Positions 30,601-39,600 of a stretch of 64,000 bases of DNA are shown piece by piece. Position 1 is the first letter of the stretch, and every line of letters starts with the position of its first letter. The stretch comes from Octopus vulgaris (taxonomy: Eukaryota), in the NCBI GenBank assembly GCA_951406725.2, contig OX597817.1:100378001-100442000 (forward strand), read 5' to 3'. Position numbers: made by a program.

Positions 30601-33600
30601 GGTTGAGAACATTTCGTTAAATTTTCTCCAAAAGATCACATTAACATGATGAGAAATATTTTTTTAAAAATGAAACCAGTCTAAACTTTTGACTATTTTA
30701 GAAATCAAATGAAATACACAAGGGATGTATTTTGGTTAGAAATATGGCAATGAGTAGGATAAGTGTGAGGAGGCAGATCTGGCCAGTTTCAACAAAAAGC
30801 AGGTAGGATGATTTAGCCAGATATGGCTGGCTTAAATAAGGAGTTAAAAGAATACTGATGCCAAATAATTACAAGAGAACCATACCGCTTAACAATTGTA
30901 CTTTATTTGCCCAATTATTGTAATATCTCTGACAGGCATTCCAACAGAAAGAATGACCACTCTCACAGCAGGAGATCAAGGAATCTCCCGATTTCCCAAA
31001 AATATAGGCAACACCCCACTTGAGACAACTATTTCCCTTTCTTCGCCTTGATCTTCCTCATATAAAATTCAAGTTCTTTTCCTTCAAGTACAATACCATC
31101 AGATTTACCATATTGACCTGGTCGTGAAGTGATTTTCGCTGCAAAGAAAAAAAACACAAAAAAACCTTAATAAACAGAAAAAAATACATTTCCCAATTTA
31201 GATTGTTCAACAAATCACTTTATCAATGGCACTACACAAATTTATAGTGAAACATGAATCTATATAATCAAAATTCTTCAAAGTTAAATCAGGTTATGCC
31301 AAACAACTACTCATGCAGATACACCACATTTCTAATTCATTCAATTGGAAAGAGACCATCAAAATTTTGTACAACATTAAATTTCAGCTGAAAGATGGCT
31401 TAAATATTTATCATGGAATCTCTATTCCAAACAAATATATCCCAATTCTCCGTACAGTCAGTCAGCCGTGATTTGCATCAATGCAGGTATTTAACCCTCT
31501 CATTACTATATTTCCGACCAAAATACACTCCTCATGAGTTTCAATTAAATTCTAAAATAATCATGAATTTAGGCTTGTTTCATTAAATAACTTTTTTTAT
31601 TTAACATATTAATGTGACATTTGGAACATAATTAAAGAAAGGGTTCTTAATCTATTCTATTACATAACTTTTGTCTCAAATTGACTTTAATTACAGGTAA
31701 ATTGAGCAAAAGGTAAAAACATTAAAATTTTGTTTAATCACCATAGAAAATGAATCATCAGCTAATATTCTAATGGCTATGCAACAAAATTTTGATAAAG
31801 AAGAATTGTGCACACCACTAGATCATCAGTTGAATTTAATGCACAAGGTGGAATAAACTGAAATACTGGAATCCACCGCAAGTTTGACCGAACTAAAGAA
31901 ATCGGTCAAAAAATAATATACGGCCCTGGTTATGGTATGGAAGTGATAAATTCCAGACCACATCGTTCCCTAGGCCATGCTGACTAACATTTTCCCTGTA
32001 TAAAAACTAAATCCACAACAGTACCCAGTATTTAGCTCCACAAATTTTCCAAACTTTGACCCCCCATTTTGTGTTTGTTTACATTCTGCGAAACAGTTTG
32101 CTTCAACAGTGATTGCTCCAAACAAGCATACTGAAAAAAATAAAGTCTAATGGTTTTGCTTCTTAAGAAAGACTATAGATAAACTATCTCCTCAGAAAAA
32201 TTGCTAATAAAATCATTTAAAGTTTTTTTTTTACTTCATTCCGAAGTAAAATCGTCTTTGCTGTCTCTCCATTAACTGCTTTCGGTTAACAGATAAAAAA
32301 AAACATCCCATTCATTATTGTACACCACGTGCTTTAAGACCTCATTCATTCCTTTTCTTTTTCTCGATATCTCCCTATTTTCCGTTGAGAAAGCTTTAAA
32401 TTCAGAATCAATGCTAGATAACATGAAACTCCTATCCATTTTCAAAGTTGAAGAAAAATCTGAGTTCAGATGTCACATCAAGCAATGTCGAATACTATAA
32501 GCCAACTATTTACAAAGTGAAATCACATGTTTTAACGAATGTACCAACGAGATTTGGGTTCAAATTTACATTTAAATAATAGGTTCTCTAGGTTTTGGTA
32601 TTACGAACCAAAAATTTTTTCGGCCGGGTTAGTAACGAAAGGGTTAACACAATTGCCCTTCTACAAAACTCTAATGCTAACAATTAGATTTGTTGACCTC
32701 AGTTGCTCTATAGATACGTGATACCAAATATGCACCTGTGTGCCTGCCTACTTGACTCAATCTCTTGGCAACTGGTGTACATATCCTATGCTCCAGTAAA
32801 TTAGTGACTCAGTCAAAATAAAAATGTAAGAGACTGATAAGCAGTGAAGTTTGTTCAACTAAAAAGAACTCTTCAAAGAGGTACTGCAGCATAGTTGCAG
32901 TTCAATGACTGACACAAGCAAAATAATACTTACCTAATAATCGACCAGTCATGAATTCTTCTTGAAGAGCTGGCTCAACTTTAGCTGTCTTACGCCGTAA
33001 TGTGTATTTTCTTTGATTCTTTCGTGAACGCACTTTGTTAAGAACAGATTCTTCTTGTTCAGTCTACAAAGGTTATAAACAAAATATACACTCAACCAGG
33101 TCACAATTATTATACACAAAACAGATTTCTATCAATCACCACCCAGACATTAGAAAAATGGTGAAGTAATGATATGCACAACCCTCCATGCCAATTGTAC
33201 AGTTTCTCCATATCAAATGTGAACAATATTTCAGAATATTTATGCAAAAAAGGAACAAAAATCATTGTTGCCATCTATATTCAATGGAGTCCTCGACATC
33301 TAACTTACAATTGAATCAAAAGGTAATATTTCTGGATGAAACTTACTCTGCATCCTCAATAAAGGACTCACCAACTGAGGAAGAGGAGAGGAAAAACATT
33401 ATGAGTTATACCAAACGCAGTCAGTGTAACTATGACATACTGGCACCATAGCTAAACATTTAGCTACTACAGCATATATATATGGTCATCATTCTGCTTT
33501 TGGCAAATAAAATTGTACTTGTATAAATAAAGTACAAATCTTTTCTGGTTCAAACAAATGAATATCACACTACTGGTCAACTGTGGAGGAAGAGATGTTA

Positions 33601-36600: not shown

Positions 36601-39600
36601 GTAAACAATGTGATATCTTAATACCACTTTCAAACTTAATCTTTAACTCCAACATTTAAACTAACCATAATATTCTATCTTCAGATTACTGTCAATGCAA
36701 CGCTTGTTTATTCACACTTTTTAATCAATTATGCATTATCAAGTAATAATGAGATTATGATATGATTACTTATAGAATGAAACTGTAGAGTAGGTGTTAG
36801 GCCAGAAACTGGTTGGTTTAAATGCCATATCTCCTCATACCCACACTACAATATCATTCTAAAAAACAATCATTGAAATTTCGAAGCTGCAAGATAATGC
36901 ATGATTAATTCAAAGCAATCTGAACACACAAGCATTACATTTGATAGAACAATCCGAATGTGCAAGGGTTAAGATCATGTAAAGCAATACTTCAGCAGCA
37001 AAGAGTAATGAAGACCATCGTGAACTATTTCATCATCTGCAGATTACTTTCAATATTTATATGAAATCCTGTTATAAATCATACCAATTAAGTTACCATC
37101 TCATGTTAAAAAAAAAAAAAAAGCATTGAAGCCATCAAACTAATTCACCAAAATATTACTTCTAATTGGACAAGAATAGTATCCTCTACATCCAAAGACC
37201 ATACATCCCAATGTATACTTAATTTATTTTTAGTAAATGTAAGGTGCTTTAACTCTTACAAATTATATAAACTTCAGATTTGGTATCCAACAGACTCAAC
37301 AATAATGGGTAGACATTATTTGAATCAGATGTTTCAATTTATACTTAGAATAGTAAAAGCTTAGTAGTGAATGTGACAATTCCAAAGAGAATAATATAAA
37401 TTGACAAGTGAACTTGACAACACATTTTTGATGATAGGCGGTATACTTGTTTGTTTACAATGAACATACAATAATACATTTTTCAGACAATTAGGGTGAA
37501 ACCTTGTCAGTGAAGCAAAATTATATACTTTCTCAGAAACTATACACACATGCTAGGTATTCTAACTCCACACATTCATTTCTGAAAGCTATATAAAGCA
37601 ATACTGCATCAGGTCTGGATAACTTCAGCAGCAAAGAGTAATGAAGACCATCGTGAAAGATTTCATCATCTGCAGATTACTTTCAACATTCATGTGAAAA
37701 TGTTACAAATCTATTATAAACTTAACCAGTTATATTACCATCACATGTTAATAAATGCACTGAAGTCATTAAACTAATTTACAAGCATATCTCAGATGTG
37801 AACACCACCAAATTCAGTTCGAAGAATTACATTTATATATCAAATTTGAAGGCAAACAGAAAAGATCTCAAATTTCCACTAATTATTCAAGAATTGTATC
37901 AACATCTAAGACCGTATATCCCAATTAATTTCTTTCTAATATAGAGTCAATGCATTATGAAAGAATTTACTTTAAAAAAAGTGTTGTGTCTAAACTCTTG
38001 AAAATTATATAAACTTCAGACTTGGTATCCTAGTGACTGACTCAACAATAAGCAGACTTTCCTAAAATCAGACATTTCAGTGTACATGGAAAAATTTAGT
38101 GAAAGTGGCAAGTGATTCCAAAAAAGAGAATAAAATTAACTAGTGTACCTGTCAACACTTATTTTTGATGATAGGTGGTATACCTCTTCGTTTACAATGT
38201 TATATTTCTCAATCATGATGGAATCTTGTCAGTGAAGCAAAATTGTATACTTGTCCATGCCACACATGTTCAATTCTGAAAGCTATATAAAGCAATACTG
38301 CATCAGGTCTGGATAACTTCAGCAGCAAAGAGTAATGAAGACCATCGTGAAAGATTTCATCATCTGCAGATTACTTTCAACATTCATATGAAAATGTAAC
38401 AAGCTCATCTATTATAAACCATACCAATTAAGTCACCAACTCATGTCTTAAGAAAATAATAGAAGCCATCAAACTAATTCACTAGAATATTTCCACTAAT
38501 TAATCAAGAATTGTATCCTTCTCATTCAAAGACCATACACCCTGATGTATACTTAATGCATTATGAAATAATTTATTTTCTACAAAATTGTGGTATTCTA
38601 ATTCTTGAAAATTATATAGACTTCAGATTTGGTATCTAACAGTCTCAACAACAATGCTTGAATCAGATATTTCAATTTACACTTAGAATAGTAAAAATTT
38701 AAAAGTGAACGTAACAATGAAAGGATACCAAAGATGATAGGTGGTATACTTGATTGTTTACAATAAACATGCAATAATACATTTTTCAGACAAGGTGAAA
38801 TCTTGTCAGTGAAGCAAAATTATATACTTTCTCAGAAACTATACACACATGCTAGGTATTCTAACTCCACACATTCATTTCTGAAAGCTATATAAAGCAA
38901 TACTGCATCAGGTCTGGATAACTTCAGCAGCAAAGAGTAATGAAGACCATCGTGAAAGATTTCATCATCTGCAGATTACTTTCAATATTCATTTGAAAAT
39001 GTTACAAGCTTATCTATTATAAACTTAACCAGTTATATTACTATCACATGTTAATAAATGCACTGAAGTCATTAAACTAATTTACAAGTATATCTCAGAT
39101 GTTTTCTGTTTGTGTTTCACTTCAACTTTGTTCCAATTAATTTCAAATTTGGTATATTGATGTAGTTTTGTATGCTACTTATTGTTTAACATGTTTTTCT
39201 CGCTTGCATGGTAGAAGACTATACCAGGCTTCAATGTCTGCTTTGGCAGGGTCTTTACAACTGGATACCCTTCCTAACACCAACCAATTTACAGAAATTT
39301 TTTGCAATAAATTAATAACTAAACTTTTAAAGCTTGCAAATTTGGTCAAACGAAAGTGTTTGACCCGGTCATTAAAAAAAAAAAAGTGTAATATGTGTAA
39401 AACAACTTCCTCTAAACGAATGACAAAAAAATGCGTGCTCGTGGAGGGGGTGGGGGGAGAGGCCTTGGAAAATTCACATCTTTCAGTCCATGGCCCTATA
39501 GTGTTTGACGGGTCGGAAAAAAAGAAAAAATAGTGTAAAACTACTTGTTCGAAACGATTATCAAGAACACACACACAAAGAGAAATGGTTGGTTCACTGC

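What the first reader, a model, noticed from the sequence alone, without database searches (positions are those of the whole stretch)
31345..38974. RPS8 introns act as an amplified, multi-snoRNA-per-intron cluster undergoing birth and death
Seen: at least 11 C/D snoRNA copies of three families on the host strand. Intron 3 has 4 SNORD35-like, intron 4 has 3 SNORD46-like plus 3 SNORD51-like (plus an H/ACA candidate), and intron 5 has 1 SNORD51-like. About 7 have intact boxes and the rest show specific box losses. Known: animal intronic snoRNAs are mostly one per intron, released by debranching and exonucleolytic trimming, whereas polycistronic clusters in plants and yeast need endonucleolytic cuts. 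Inference: several intact snoRNAs in one intron imply an extra separation step (endonuclease, recursive or alternative splicing) or sno-lncRNA-like products capped by a snoRNP at each end.
Basis: partly seen in the sequence, partly recalled or inferred. Interest (0 to 1): 0.8.

Follow-up and report, generated by a model that had tools for sequence, protein, structure and literature searches.

The report
Octopus RPS8 introns hold snoRNA arrays
Three introns of an octopus ribosomal-protein gene carry eleven duplicated copies of three small guide RNAs, seven of them intact, which is a clear but not unprecedented case of several such RNAs sharing one intron.

Summary
The gene is an octopus RPS8 on the minus strand; its exons are 100% identical to the Octopus bimaculoides eS8 chain of PDB 9EHO. 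Introns 3, 4 and 5 carry exactly 11 box C/D snoRNA-like elements:
- Intron 3: 4 SNORD35-like.
- Intron 4: 3 SNORD51/Me28S-Am982-like and 3 SNORD46-like.
- Intron 5: 1 SNORD51-like.

Seven of 11 keep C box, D box and guide; 4 have specific lesions. None of the 11 reaches Rfam's gathering score, but each family's guide element matches the Rfam consensus.

Mapping the exons one by one leaves no room for a missing coding exon. Intact paralogues are far better conserved than their flanks: three SNORD35-like copies share a 107-nt identical block inside units whose flanks differ by 9-21%. So several copies per intron are being maintained. The H/ACA candidate is not supported.

Intronic snoRNA clusters are already a recognised category, so this is a new member of a known kind.

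One new detail: a perfect abutting acceptor/donor (CAG|GTGAGT at 34,328) lies 70 nt downstream of an intact copy. It is a candidate zero-length exon, but it cannot explain intron 3. Expression data would decide.

The parts
46906..46930 (-). RPS8 exon 1, 3' part: pyrimidine-rich leader, ATG and first base of codon 2, followed by a GTGAGT donor
   Evidence: It is the only ATGG|GTR match upstream of exon 2 on the host strand. The 5' end of the exon was not determined.
45305..45411 (-). RPS8 exon 2
   Evidence: 35/35 identical to residues 3-37 of 9eho_JJ. Splice signals.
45109..45208 (-). RPS8 exon 3
   Evidence: 33/33 identical to residues 38-70 of 9eho_JJ.
36179..45108 (-). Intron 3 (8930 nt). 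Holds the SNORD35-like tandem array and dispersed repeats.
38899..38973 (-). 35a, intact SNORD35-like box C/D snoRNA
   Evidence: 31.3 bits against a cut-off of 36. C and D boxes present. Extended terminal stem of 13 bp with one bulge.
38294..38368 (-). 35b, intact SNORD35-like, the internal copy of the array
   Evidence: 75/75 identical to 35a and 35c, while its flanks differ by 18-21%.
37600..37674 (-). 35c, intact SNORD35-like
   Evidence: It shares a 98-99% identical block of about 370 nt with the 35a unit.
36978..37041 (-). 35d, SNORD35-like pseudogene; the D box and 3' stem half are deleted
   Evidence: 27.9 bits. The deletion is seen.
36003..36178 (-). RPS8 exon 4
   Evidence: 58/58 identical to residues 72-129 of 9eho_JJ.
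33064..36002 (-). Intron 4 (2939 nt). Holds three SNORD51-like and three SNORD46-like copies.
35549..35622 (-). 51a, SNORD51/Me28S-Am982-like. C and D boxes are intact, D' is UUGA, and the guide has one change.
   Evidence: 33.2 bits to ceN109 and 26.6 to SNORD51. Boxes. No terminal stem closes it in the predicted fold.
34399..34472 (-). 51b, intact SNORD51/Me28S-Am982-like
   Evidence: 36.6 bits against a cut-off of 49. The guide is identical to the model consensus (alignment). Extended terminal stem.
34323..34334 (-). Abutting acceptor and donor (CAG|GTGAGT; first base after the AG is 34328), a candidate zero-length exon. It lies 70 nt downstream of 51b, with a branch-point-like motif 37 nt upstream.
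   Evidence: It is the only match to YYYYAGGTRAGT in both strands of the window. 16 of 17 pyrimidines upstream. Geometry. Whether it is used is not shown.
34071..34154 (-). 51c, SNORD51-like pseudogene; the C box is lost
33734..33826 (-). 46a, intact SNORD46-like
   Evidence: 24.6 bits against a cut-off of 40; guide plus D box identical to the consensus. 12-bp terminal stem.
33618..33688 (-). 46b, SNORD46-like pseudogene; the D box is lost and there is an internal deletion
   Evidence: 15.5 bits..
33412..33503 (-). 46c, intact SNORD46-like
   Evidence: 26.3 bits. 88/91 identical to 46a with poorly alignable flanks. 11-bp terminal stem.
33366..33395 (-). Acceptor-like tract (17 of 17 pyrimidines, then CAG), 3 nt (TTG), then a GTGAGT donor. 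Two more donor-like sites follow at 33346 and 33308.
   Evidence: The 3 nt are not in the recorded protein: residues 129 and 130 are adjacent.
32934..33063 (-). RPS8 exon 5
   Evidence: 43/43 identical to residues 130-172 of 9eho_JJ.
31139..32933 (-). Intron 5 (1795 nt). Holds one degraded SNORD51-like copy and a dispersed repeat.
31348..31422 (-). 51d, SNORD51-like pseudogene; both the C and D boxes are mutated
   Evidence: 24.9 bits. Boxes. It shares a 71-nt upstream flank with 51b at 79% identity.
31029..31138 (-). RPS8 exon 6, coding part with the stop codon
   Evidence: 35/35 identical to residues 174-208 of 9eho_JJ.

Best explanation
**What it is.** This is the RPS8 gene of an octopus (Octopus bimaculoides or a close relative). 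Local tandem and segmental duplication has filled its introns 3-5 with paralogous box C/D snoRNA genes of three guide families.

**Shown.**
- There are 11 copies, all on the host strand.
- 7 have intact terminal boxes and 4 have disabling lesions.
- No coding exon lies between them.
- Intact copies are much better conserved than their flanks.
- Each family's antisense element equals the Rfam consensus.
- SNORD46-in-RPS8 is the same host-guest pair as in human.

**Inferred: transcription and assembly.** All copies are transcribed as part of the RPS8 pre-mRNA. The intact ones assemble into snoRNPs wherever they lie, because most carry long terminal stems (11-15 bp). None is near an annotated acceptor; the distances are 348-2720 nt.

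**Inferred: release.** Individual snoRNAs are freed from the excised or nascent intron by cuts in the AU-rich spacers followed by exonucleolytic trimming, as in plant, yeast and fly clusters. The internal copy 35b stays identical although its unit has diverged. That argues that internal copies are released and used rather than trapped.

**Inferred: evolution.** Copy number is probably neutral. Unequal crossing-over and gene conversion create and homogenise copies, and mutation kills them.

**Possible addition.** In intron 4 an internal CAG|GTGAGT may split the intron into two lariats, one per family.
For: **Gene identity and structure.** The five exon peptides are each 100% identical to contiguous stretches of 9eho_JJ. 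9EHO is the O. bimaculoides ribosome (passages).

**Copies and boxes.**

**Guides.**
- The SNORD35 antisense element is exact in 4 of 4 copies.
- SNORD46 guide plus D box is exact in 2 of 3 copies.
- The SNORD51-type guide has 0-2 mismatches in 4 of 4 copies.

**Conservation contrast.**
- 35a, 35b and 35c share a 107-nt identical block. Flank substitution rates are 21%, 18% and 9%. That makes 0 changes in the 75-nt core improbable at 1.7e-8, 3.6e-7 and 9e-4.
- 51a and 51b match at 58 of 69 core positions, while their flanks are not alignable.
- 46a and 46c match at 88 of 91 core positions, while their flanks align for only 13-19 nt.
- The dead copy 51d is no better conserved than its flank: 54/61 against 56/71.

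**Terminal stems.** 4 of the 5 intact representatives folded (35a, 51b, 46a, 46c) are closed by extended stems in both the minimum-energy and the centroid structures.

**Distances to annotated acceptors.**

**Precedent in print.** Human SNORD46 lies in an RPS8 intron (PMC5025248, passage). Intronic clusters are a recognised arrangement (PMC11028025).
Against: - No RNA evidence of any kind was available, so expression of any copy is unproven.
- 0 of 11 copies reach Rfam's curated score.
- Complementarity to octopus rRNA could not be tested, because no rRNA sequence was in hand.
- Gene conversion is clearly at work. The 35a and 35c units share a 98-99% identical block of about 370 nt on units that are otherwise 78-84% alike. 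Conversion could keep cores identical without each copy being used.
- 51a has a variant D' and a changed guide, and it lacks a predicted closing stem. It may be decaying.
- Fold energies are no better than shuffles (z from -1.39 to +1.16).
- No spacer endonuclease for such clusters is known to me in animals (recalled).
- The consensus fold of the conserved spacer blocks is weak: -7.6 kcal/mol, with 1 compensatory pair among 26, from 3 sequences.
Confidence: 0.55

Rival explanations
1. Stepwise (recursive or alternative) splicing does the separating. Intron 4 is removed in two steps through the zero-length exon at 34328. The SNORD51-like pair (51b optimally placed) leaves in one lariat and the SNORD46-like copies leave in another. 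The acceptor/donor cluster at 33374-33308 may define a rare cassette or poison exon.
For: - The site is a perfect polypyrimidine-CAG directly abutting GTGAGT. It is the only match to the textbook pattern in both strands of 64 kb.
- With my own score, 2 of the 3 abutting or near-abutting sites in the window lie in this 2.9-kb intron on the host strand.
- 16/17 and 17/17 pyrimidines, against 9-14/17 at the five annotated acceptors I placed.
- 51b ends 70 nt upstream of the AG and 34 nt upstream of a branch-point-like motif. [quoted passage not shown]
- Zero-length and 1-nt exons separate snoRNAs in fungal host transcripts (PMC5033589; bioRxiv 10.1101/226894).
Against: - One such site somewhere in the window is not significant: 18 of 100 shuffles give at least one. 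A stricter variant of the pattern matched nothing.
- My scoring thresholds were set after I had seen the sites. The score also missed 3 of the 5 real acceptors I placed.
- Even if the site is used, 51a and 51b stay together, and so do 46a and 46c.
- No splice-like signal lies between 35a, 35b and 35c, so intron 3 is left unexplained.
- The 33374 site would add a codon that is not in the recorded protein.
- Neither conservation in other cephalopods nor junction reads could be checked.
Confidence: 0.2
2. The main stable products are sno-lncRNA-like molecules capped by a snoRNP at each end. Internal copies stay trapped, and only the outermost copies count.
For: This is the default outcome when two snoRNAs share an intron and only exonucleases act (PMC4233238 and PMC11028025, passages). 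The spacers of 45-1076 nt would give species of 680, 769 and 1374 nt from intron 3. Intron 4 would give 2211 nt, or 1224 and 415 nt if it is split.
Against: The internal copy 35b is as perfectly conserved as the outer ones, although its unit is the most diverged. That is unexpected for a trapped, useless copy. [quoted passage not shown] Nothing here shows such RNAs exist.
Confidence: 0.15
3. Each tandem unit is its own small transcription unit nested in the intron, so no separation from the host intron is needed.
For: SNORD35 units carry conserved blocks outside the RNA, measured from the C box among the three intact units:
- -117 to -98: 87% mean pairwise identity.
- -65 to -26: 82-87%, including a TATA-like block about 35-45 nt upstream of the RNA.
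- Units are otherwise 30-55% alike.

46a and 46c also share a TATA-like block upstream (alignment). Intronic snoRNAs with their own promoters are reported in nematodes (recalled, not checked).
Against: - In a genome region with about 33% G+C, TATA-like strings are common.
- The block sits at different distances in 46a and 46c.
- No comparable shared motif is evident upstream of 51a and 51b.
- The 17 nt directly upstream belong to the extended stem, which fits processing from a longer precursor.
- All 11 copies lie on the host strand, as expected for host-dependent expression.
Confidence: 0.1
4. Only one copy per family (or per intron) is really used. The other intact copies are young or conversion-maintained passengers on their way to becoming pseudogenes.
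For: 4 of 11 copies are already dead. 51a shows early signs of decay. 35a and 35c were homogenised recently. RPS8 is presumably so highly expressed that one copy should suffice (general knowledge).
Against: 51a/51b and 46a/46c have flanks diverged beyond alignment, while boxes, stems and guides are kept. The identical block in 35a-c begins at the 5' edge of the extended stem and covers the snoRNA with both stem strands, running on about 12 nt beyond the 3' strand. That looks like selection on a functional unit rather than a random conversion tract.
Confidence: 0.15

Closest known systems
Intronic snoRNA clusters of animals, especially Drosophila 'intronic gene clusters' (Huang et al. 2004, 2005)
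   Same: Several snoRNA genes lie within one intron of a host gene, on the host strand, with no exon between them. Ribosomal-protein genes are frequent hosts: 27 fly cytoplasmic ribosomal-protein genes host snoRNAs (PMC2246290, passage). The arrangement is a named category in a 2024 review (PMC11028025).
   Different: I could see only the titles of the two Drosophila papers in a reference list. PMC1370813 is not held. The 2004 title concerns H/ACA snoRNAs, whereas these copies are box C/D paralogues of the same guide repeated in tandem. My two library searches found no description for cephalopods.
Human RPS8 as host of SNORD46
   Same: The same host gene and the same guide family. The guide plus D box in 46a and 46c is identical to the Rfam SNORD46 consensus. 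Human SNORD46 lies in an RPS8 intron (PMC5025248).
   Different: Here there are three tandem copies in one intron, and two other families share the gene. In human those families live in other hosts: SNORD35 with RPL13A (seen in the search listing) and SNORD51 with EEF1B2 (recalled). The human RPS8 snoRNAs SNORD38 and SNORD55 (recalled) gave no match in this window at E<=1.
sno-lncRNAs (Yin et al. 2012)
   Same: Two or more box C/D snoRNAs share one intron. This is the configuration that yields RNAs capped by a snoRNP at both ends.
   Different: No RNA product was seen here. In this window the internal copies are conserved, and the array has three or more intact members.
Fungal polycistronic snoRNA host transcripts with zero-length or 1-nt exons (Candida, Debaryomyces; S. 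pombe snoRNA61 host)
   Same: An acceptor directly abutting a donor between snoRNAs, so that each part leaves as its own intron (PMC5033589; bioRxiv 10.1101/226894).
   Different: Those hosts are non-coding and the splicing was shown by RNA data. Here the site lies inside a coding-gene intron of an animal, it is a single candidate, and its use is untested.
Plant and yeast polycistronic snoRNA clusters cut by endonucleases (RNase III type)
   Same: Several snoRNAs on one precursor need cuts in the spacers before trimming. References are in PMC11028025, and the abstract of PMC12508059 describes Pac1 cleavage.
   Different: No RNase III-type signal could be shown in the spacers. The enzyme in animals is unknown to me.

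Membership tests
Box C/D snoRNA (general class) | C box (RUGAUGA) near the 5' end and D box (CUGA) near the 3' end | tested here: met
   Met in 7 of 11 copies. The other 4 each lack at least one box.
Box C/D snoRNA (general class) | A terminal stem that brings the C and D boxes together | tested here: met
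   4 of the 5 intact representatives folded close with 11-15 bp stems; 51a does not. Fold energies are not better than shuffles.
Box C/D snoRNA (general class) | An antisense element of 10 nt or more directly upstream of D or D', complementary to the target RNA | tested here: inconclusive
   The elements equal the conserved antisense blocks of the Rfam consensus sequences. No octopus rRNA sequence was available to test pairing directly.
Box C/D snoRNA (general class) | A stable RNA of about 60-100 nt bound by fibrillarin-type core proteins | not testable with these tools
   No expression data were available.
SNORD35 (RF00211) | Score at or above Rfam's gathering cut-off (36 bits) | tested here: not met
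   31.3 bits for three copies and 27.9 for the fourth. I therefore call them 'SNORD35-like'.
SNORD35 (RF00211) | The family's conserved antisense element | tested here: met
   The 15-nt element matches the consensus in the cmscan alignment and is exact in 4 of 4 copies.
SNORD46 (RF00218) | Score at or above Rfam's gathering cut-off (40 bits) | tested here: not met
   26.3, 24.6 and 15.5 bits.
SNORD46 (RF00218) | The conserved 3' antisense element next to the D box, and residence in an RPS8 intron | tested here: met
   Guide plus D box is identical to the consensus in 46a and 46c. The host is RPS8 here and in human. The 5' half of the vertebrate consensus is not conserved.
SNORD51 / Me28S-Am982 (RF00280, RF00535; clan CL00054) | Score at or above Rfam's gathering cut-offs (50 and 49 bits) | tested here: not met
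   The best is 36.6 bits (51b against RF00535). 51a scores 26.6 against RF00280. The same copies also match SNORD96 and ceN109 models that share the antisense element, so the family label is approximate.
SNORD51 / Me28S-Am982 (RF00280, RF00535; clan CL00054) | The conserved antisense element upstream of D' | tested here: met
   Exact in 51b, 1 mismatch in 51c and 51d, 2 mismatches in 51a including the D' box.
Intronic snoRNA cluster | Two or more snoRNA genes in one intron, on the host strand, with no exon between them | tested here: met
   Exon-by-exon mapping gives adjacent residue numbers across introns 3, 4 and 5. All copies are on the minus strand. Non-coding or rare cassette exons cannot be excluded without RNA data.
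Recursive splicing (zero-length exon) | An acceptor (polypyrimidine-AG) directly abutting a donor (GTRAGT) | tested here: met
   At 34323-34334 on the host strand.
Recursive splicing (zero-length exon) | Use shown by junction or lariat reads, or by a sawtooth read profile | not testable with these tools
   No RNA-seq access.
Recursive splicing (zero-length exon) | Conservation of the site in related species | not testable with these tools
sno-lncRNA | A stable RNA with a snoRNP at each end | not testable with these tools
   Only the predicted sizes could be computed.
   No H/ACA family at E<=10. Only 12-19 bit matches, against cut-offs of 80 and 35. My crude architecture scan gave 0 hits on the host strand and 0 on the control strand, so it has no power.

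The most novel reading that the evidence does not exclude
The CAG|GTGAGT at 34,328 is a working zero-length exon. Octopus RPS8 intron 4 would then be spliced out in two steps, with the recursive acceptor placed about 70 nt behind an intact snoRNA. The SNORD51-like and SNORD46-like groups would leave in separate lariats and be matured separately. That would be recursive splicing recruited inside an animal protein-coding gene to serve snoRNA production. So far this is documented only for non-coding fungal host transcripts.
Probability: 0.2. Interest if true: 0.65.

Novelty: new member of a known kind. Interest (0 to 1): 0.4.

Why it matters
- **A natural test case.** How animal cells resolve several snoRNPs assembled on one intron is still poorly understood. 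This locus offers three indistinguishable copies in one intron, two distinguishable pairs in the next, and a candidate recursive splice site between the pairs.
- **An old host-guest pairing.** It shows that SNORD46 in RPS8 predates the split between molluscs and vertebrates.
- **A practical warning for annotation.** None of the 11 copies passes Rfam's curated thresholds. Cephalopod snoRNA counts based on Rfam homology, such as the 118 C/D loci reported for the giant squid (PMC6962438, passage), probably miss many genes.

Tried and rejected
- **Rfam at gathering thresholds**: nothing in the window. I needed the permissive mode.
- **H/ACA candidate.** Two narrow permissive searches and my own architecture scan (0 host-strand and 0 control hits, so no power) gave no support.
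- **Tandem Repeats Finder** missed the 605-694 nt units because its longest period is 500. The repeat finder and alignments were used instead.
- **My first identity script** crashed on unalignable flanks after the SNORD35 pairs. I re-ran it with local alignment.
- **Fold z-scores** are not significant for any copy, so I did not use them as evidence.
- **A stricter recursive-site pattern** matched nothing. The looser one matched once but is not significant on its own.
- **Search for an RPS8 isoform with an insert between residues 129 and 130** (exon 5 peptide against longer proteins). It returned only 2 proteins: a 208-aa Argonauta hians S8-like protein at 91% identity, and an unnamed 181-aa one. 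The search is too thin to say anything, and I did not use the unnamed protein further.
- **Consensus fold of the conserved spacer blocks downstream of the SNORD35 copies**: weak at -7.6 kcal/mol, so inconclusive.
- **A test of whether the dispersed repeat in intron 5 carried 51d with it** (blastn). The similarity starts at 31488, outside the copy, so the idea is rejected.
- **Literature.**
  - PMC1370813 is not held.
  - One search failed on a '/' in a term and was re-sent without it.
  - The Drosophila 2'-O-methylation map held nothing on shared introns in the passages I searched.
- **No related loci could be fetched.** The only open contig collection holds bacteria and archaea.

Full report
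**1. What is there**

A search of the whole window with Rfam's curated thresholds finds nothing. The permissive search of 30000-40500 finds box C/D snoRNA matches on the minus strand only, all below the cut-offs:
- Four SNORD35 matches: 38899-38973, 38294-38368, 37600-37674 and 36978-37041.
- Two SNORD46 matches: 33738-33822 and 33415-33499.
- Four matches to models that share one antisense element (Me28S-Am982, SNORD51, SNORD96, ceN109): 35552-35619, 34400-34471, 34071-34154 and 31348-31422.

A third, degraded SNORD46-like copy (33616-33684) appears only in a 481-nt search.

Three further searches find no other copy in either strand of the 64 kb. These were a permissive search of the whole window, searches with the three guide elements allowing 3 mismatches, and profile searches built from the copies themselves.

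**2. Box anatomy**

Reading the host strand, 7 of 11 copies have a canonical C box and D box: 35a, 35b, 35c, 51a, 51b, 46a and 46c. The other four have lesions:
- 35d lost the D box and the 3' half of its stem through a 19-nt deletion.
- 51c lost its C box.
- 51d has point changes in both boxes.
- 46b lost its D box through a 2-nt deletion and has an internal deletion.

51a is intact at its ends but has a variant D' box and one change in the guide.

In the cmscan alignments the antisense elements equal the conserved antisense blocks of the family consensus sequences. For the SNORD51-type D' guide and the SNORD46 D guide, the fifth base upstream of the box is U, so the predicted target is an A. 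This fits the 'Am' in the Rfam name of the fly family. The human target positions I remember were not checked. No octopus rRNA was available for a direct pairing test.

**3. The host gene**

Stop-to-stop frames on the minus strand show RPS8-like peptides. I searched the gene model exon by exon and did not join the exons for any search.

Each exon peptide is 100% identical to a stretch of chain JJ of PDB 9EHO, a 208-residue eS8:

| Exon | Residues |
|---|---|
| 2 | 3-37 |
| 3 | 38-70 |
| 4 | 72-129 |
| 5 | 130-172 |
| 6 | 174-208 |

Residues 71 and 173 are the codons split by introns 3 and 5. Exon 1 (pyrimidine-rich leader, ATG, one more base, then GTGAGT) lies at 46906-46930.

9EHO is the Octopus bimaculoides ribosome (bioRxiv 10.64898/2026.06.25.734654; search listing and passages). 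So the window comes from that octopus or a close relative.

The residue numbers run on across introns 3, 4 and 5, so no constitutive coding exon separates the copies.

**4. Duplication history**

*SNORD35-like copies.* They sit in tandem units 605-694 nt apart.
- The three intact copies share a 107-nt identical block, which contains the 75-nt snoRNA and both strands of an extended stem.
- The 200 nt on either side differ by 21%, 18% and 9% at aligned positions. At those rates, zero changes in the 75-nt core has probability 1.7e-8, 3.6e-7 and 9e-4.
- The 35a and 35c units also share a 98-99% identical block of about 370 nt on units that are otherwise 78-84% alike. This is a trace of recent gene conversion or partial re-duplication.

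*The other two families.*
- 51a and 51b keep 58 of 69 core positions, although their flanks no longer align.
- 46a and 46c keep 88 of 91 core positions, with flanks that align for only 13-19 nt.
- The dead copy 51d is no better conserved than its flank: 54/61 against 56/71.

Together this is the pattern of birth (tandem duplication, conversion), maintenance of several copies, and death (4 of 11). The maintenance may owe something to conversion as well as to selection. I cannot separate the two.

**5. Where the copies sit, and how they might assemble**

No intact copy is close to an annotated acceptor; the distances are 348 to 2720 nt. [quoted passage not shown] This favours splicing-coupled assembly (PMC8162545, passage). 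A splicing-independent route is also reported (PMC11028025, passage).

I folded five representatives of the intact copies. Four (35a, 51b, 46a, 46c) are closed by stems of 11-15 bp in both the minimum-energy and the centroid structures; 51a is not. That long stems substitute for good placement is my recollection of the Hirose and Steitz work, which I did not read here. The fold energies themselves are no better than shuffles.

**6. A candidate separation signal**

Reading intron 4 on the host strand, I noticed an acceptor directly abutting a donor at 34328: a polypyrimidine tract, then CAG|GTGAGT.

Points in its favour:
- With a score I wrote afterwards, only 3 abutting or near-abutting sites occur in both strands of the window, and the two best are in this intron.
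- The second lies at 33374: acceptor, 3 nt, donor.
- Both have 16-17 of 17 pyrimidines, against 9-14 of 17 at the five annotated acceptors.
- 51b ends 70 nt upstream of the 34328 acceptor and 34 nt upstream of a branch-point-like motif.

Cautions:
- The thresholds were chosen after seeing the sites.
- The score missed 3 of the 5 real acceptors I placed.
- The plain textbook pattern matches once in the window, but 18 of 100 shuffles do as well.
- The 3 nt at 33374 are not in the recorded protein.
- There is no splice-like signal between 35a, 35b and 35c.

At best, therefore, stepwise splicing separates the two families in intron 4. It does not solve intron 3.

Fungal precedents exist: zero-length and 1-nt exons between snoRNAs in Candida and Debaryomyces host transcripts (PMC5033589, passages), and a zero-length exon in the S. 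pombe snoRNA61 host (bioRxiv 10.1101/226894, passages).

**7. Other readings**

*Own promoters.* The SNORD35 units hold conserved blocks outside the RNA:
- About 100 nt upstream of the C box.
- 26-65 nt upstream of the C box, including a TATA-like block.
- About 118-137 and 163-202 nt downstream of the C box.

These could be promoter elements, processing signals or chance. A consensus fold of the downstream blocks is weak. I keep 'own promoter per unit' as a minor rival.

*Double-ended RNAs.* The default fate of two snoRNAs in one intron is a double-ended RNA (PMC4233238 and PMC11028025, passages). The perfect conservation of the internal copy 35b argues that internal copies are released, but conversion could mimic this.

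**8. Comparison with what is known**

- Intronic snoRNA clusters are a named category (PMC11028025).
- Drosophila papers on 'multiple intronic gene clusters' exist, but I saw only their titles and the main one is not held.
- Human SNORD46 lies in an RPS8 intron (PMC5025248, passage), so that host-guest pair is ancient.
- My two library searches for snoRNAs in octopus or cephalopods found no study of their organisation. The giant-squid genome paper only counts Rfam-homologous loci.
- These searches cover open-access papers and preprints only, and supplements were closed.

**9. What stayed unchecked**

- Expression, RNA ends, splice junctions and methylation.
- Orthologous loci in other cephalopods.
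- Pairing of the guides to octopus rRNA.
- The window holds no N, and nothing in it looked human.

**10. Verdict**

The interpretation as an amplified, several-per-intron cluster with birth and death is supported. The claim that this demands a special separation mechanism is a fair inference without direct evidence, and the arrangement itself is a known kind. The candidate zero-length exon is the one element that could lift the finding above the ordinary.

Noticed in passing
31488-32579 and 41209-42985 (also about 39950-40450 in the opposite orientation): A dispersed repeat of about 1 kb occurs in intron 5 and intron 3 of RPS8 in the same orientation, at 84-98% identity in blocks. Similar peptide strings on the opposite strand near 39951-40209 suggest further, inverted copies. 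It is probably a transposable-element family. It abuts 51d but does not include it.
   Followed up: partly
37422-37565, 38155-38255, 38725-38865 and the regions 26-117 nt upstream of the C box of each SNORD35-like copy: Conserved blocks lie inside the SNORD35 tandem units but outside the snoRNA, at 73-97% identity against 30-55% elsewhere. They include a TATA-like block upstream and a branch-point-like block downstream. Their function is unknown, and the consensus fold is weak.
   Followed up: partly
33309-33374 (minus strand): Behind the strong acceptor at 33374 lie three donor-like sites within 66 nt. Use of the third would give a 66-nt cassette. By my reading it is in frame and free of stops. 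Use of the second would give a 28-nt frameshifting exon. No annotated isoform was found in a thin search.
   Followed up: partly
34473-34545 and 31423-31495 (minus strand): 51b and the dead copy 51d share a 71-nt upstream flank at 79% identity. This means the duplication that put a copy into intron 5 carried flank with it. I found no RNA family match for the flank.
   Followed up: partly
24176-24836: A 332-nt unit is repeated twice at 96% identity. Within it are hairpins that match several microRNA models on both strands, far below threshold (24373-24450 and 24702-24789). It looks like inverted-repeat transposon sequence rather than microRNA genes.
   Followed up: no
1887-4340 (+): A stop-free frame of 817 codons encodes a low-complexity Lys/Ser/Pro-rich sequence with many short repeats. 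It is possibly one large exon of a neighbouring gene.
   Followed up: no
28473-28904 (-) and 52390-52842 (-): Two open frames of 143 and 150 codons resemble each other. By eye they carry a reverse-transcriptase-like motif, so they are probably retroelement relics. They were not scanned against Pfam.
   Followed up: no
20001-24000: The GC skew is strongly positive (0.46 and 0.30), with positive AT skew. A 229-codon Pro/Ser-rich frame lies on the minus strand at 21880-22569. Unexplained.
   Followed up: no
whole window: None of the 11 snoRNA-like copies passes Rfam's gathering thresholds. Annotation of cephalopod genomes with default Rfam settings would therefore miss this whole cluster.
   Followed up: yes
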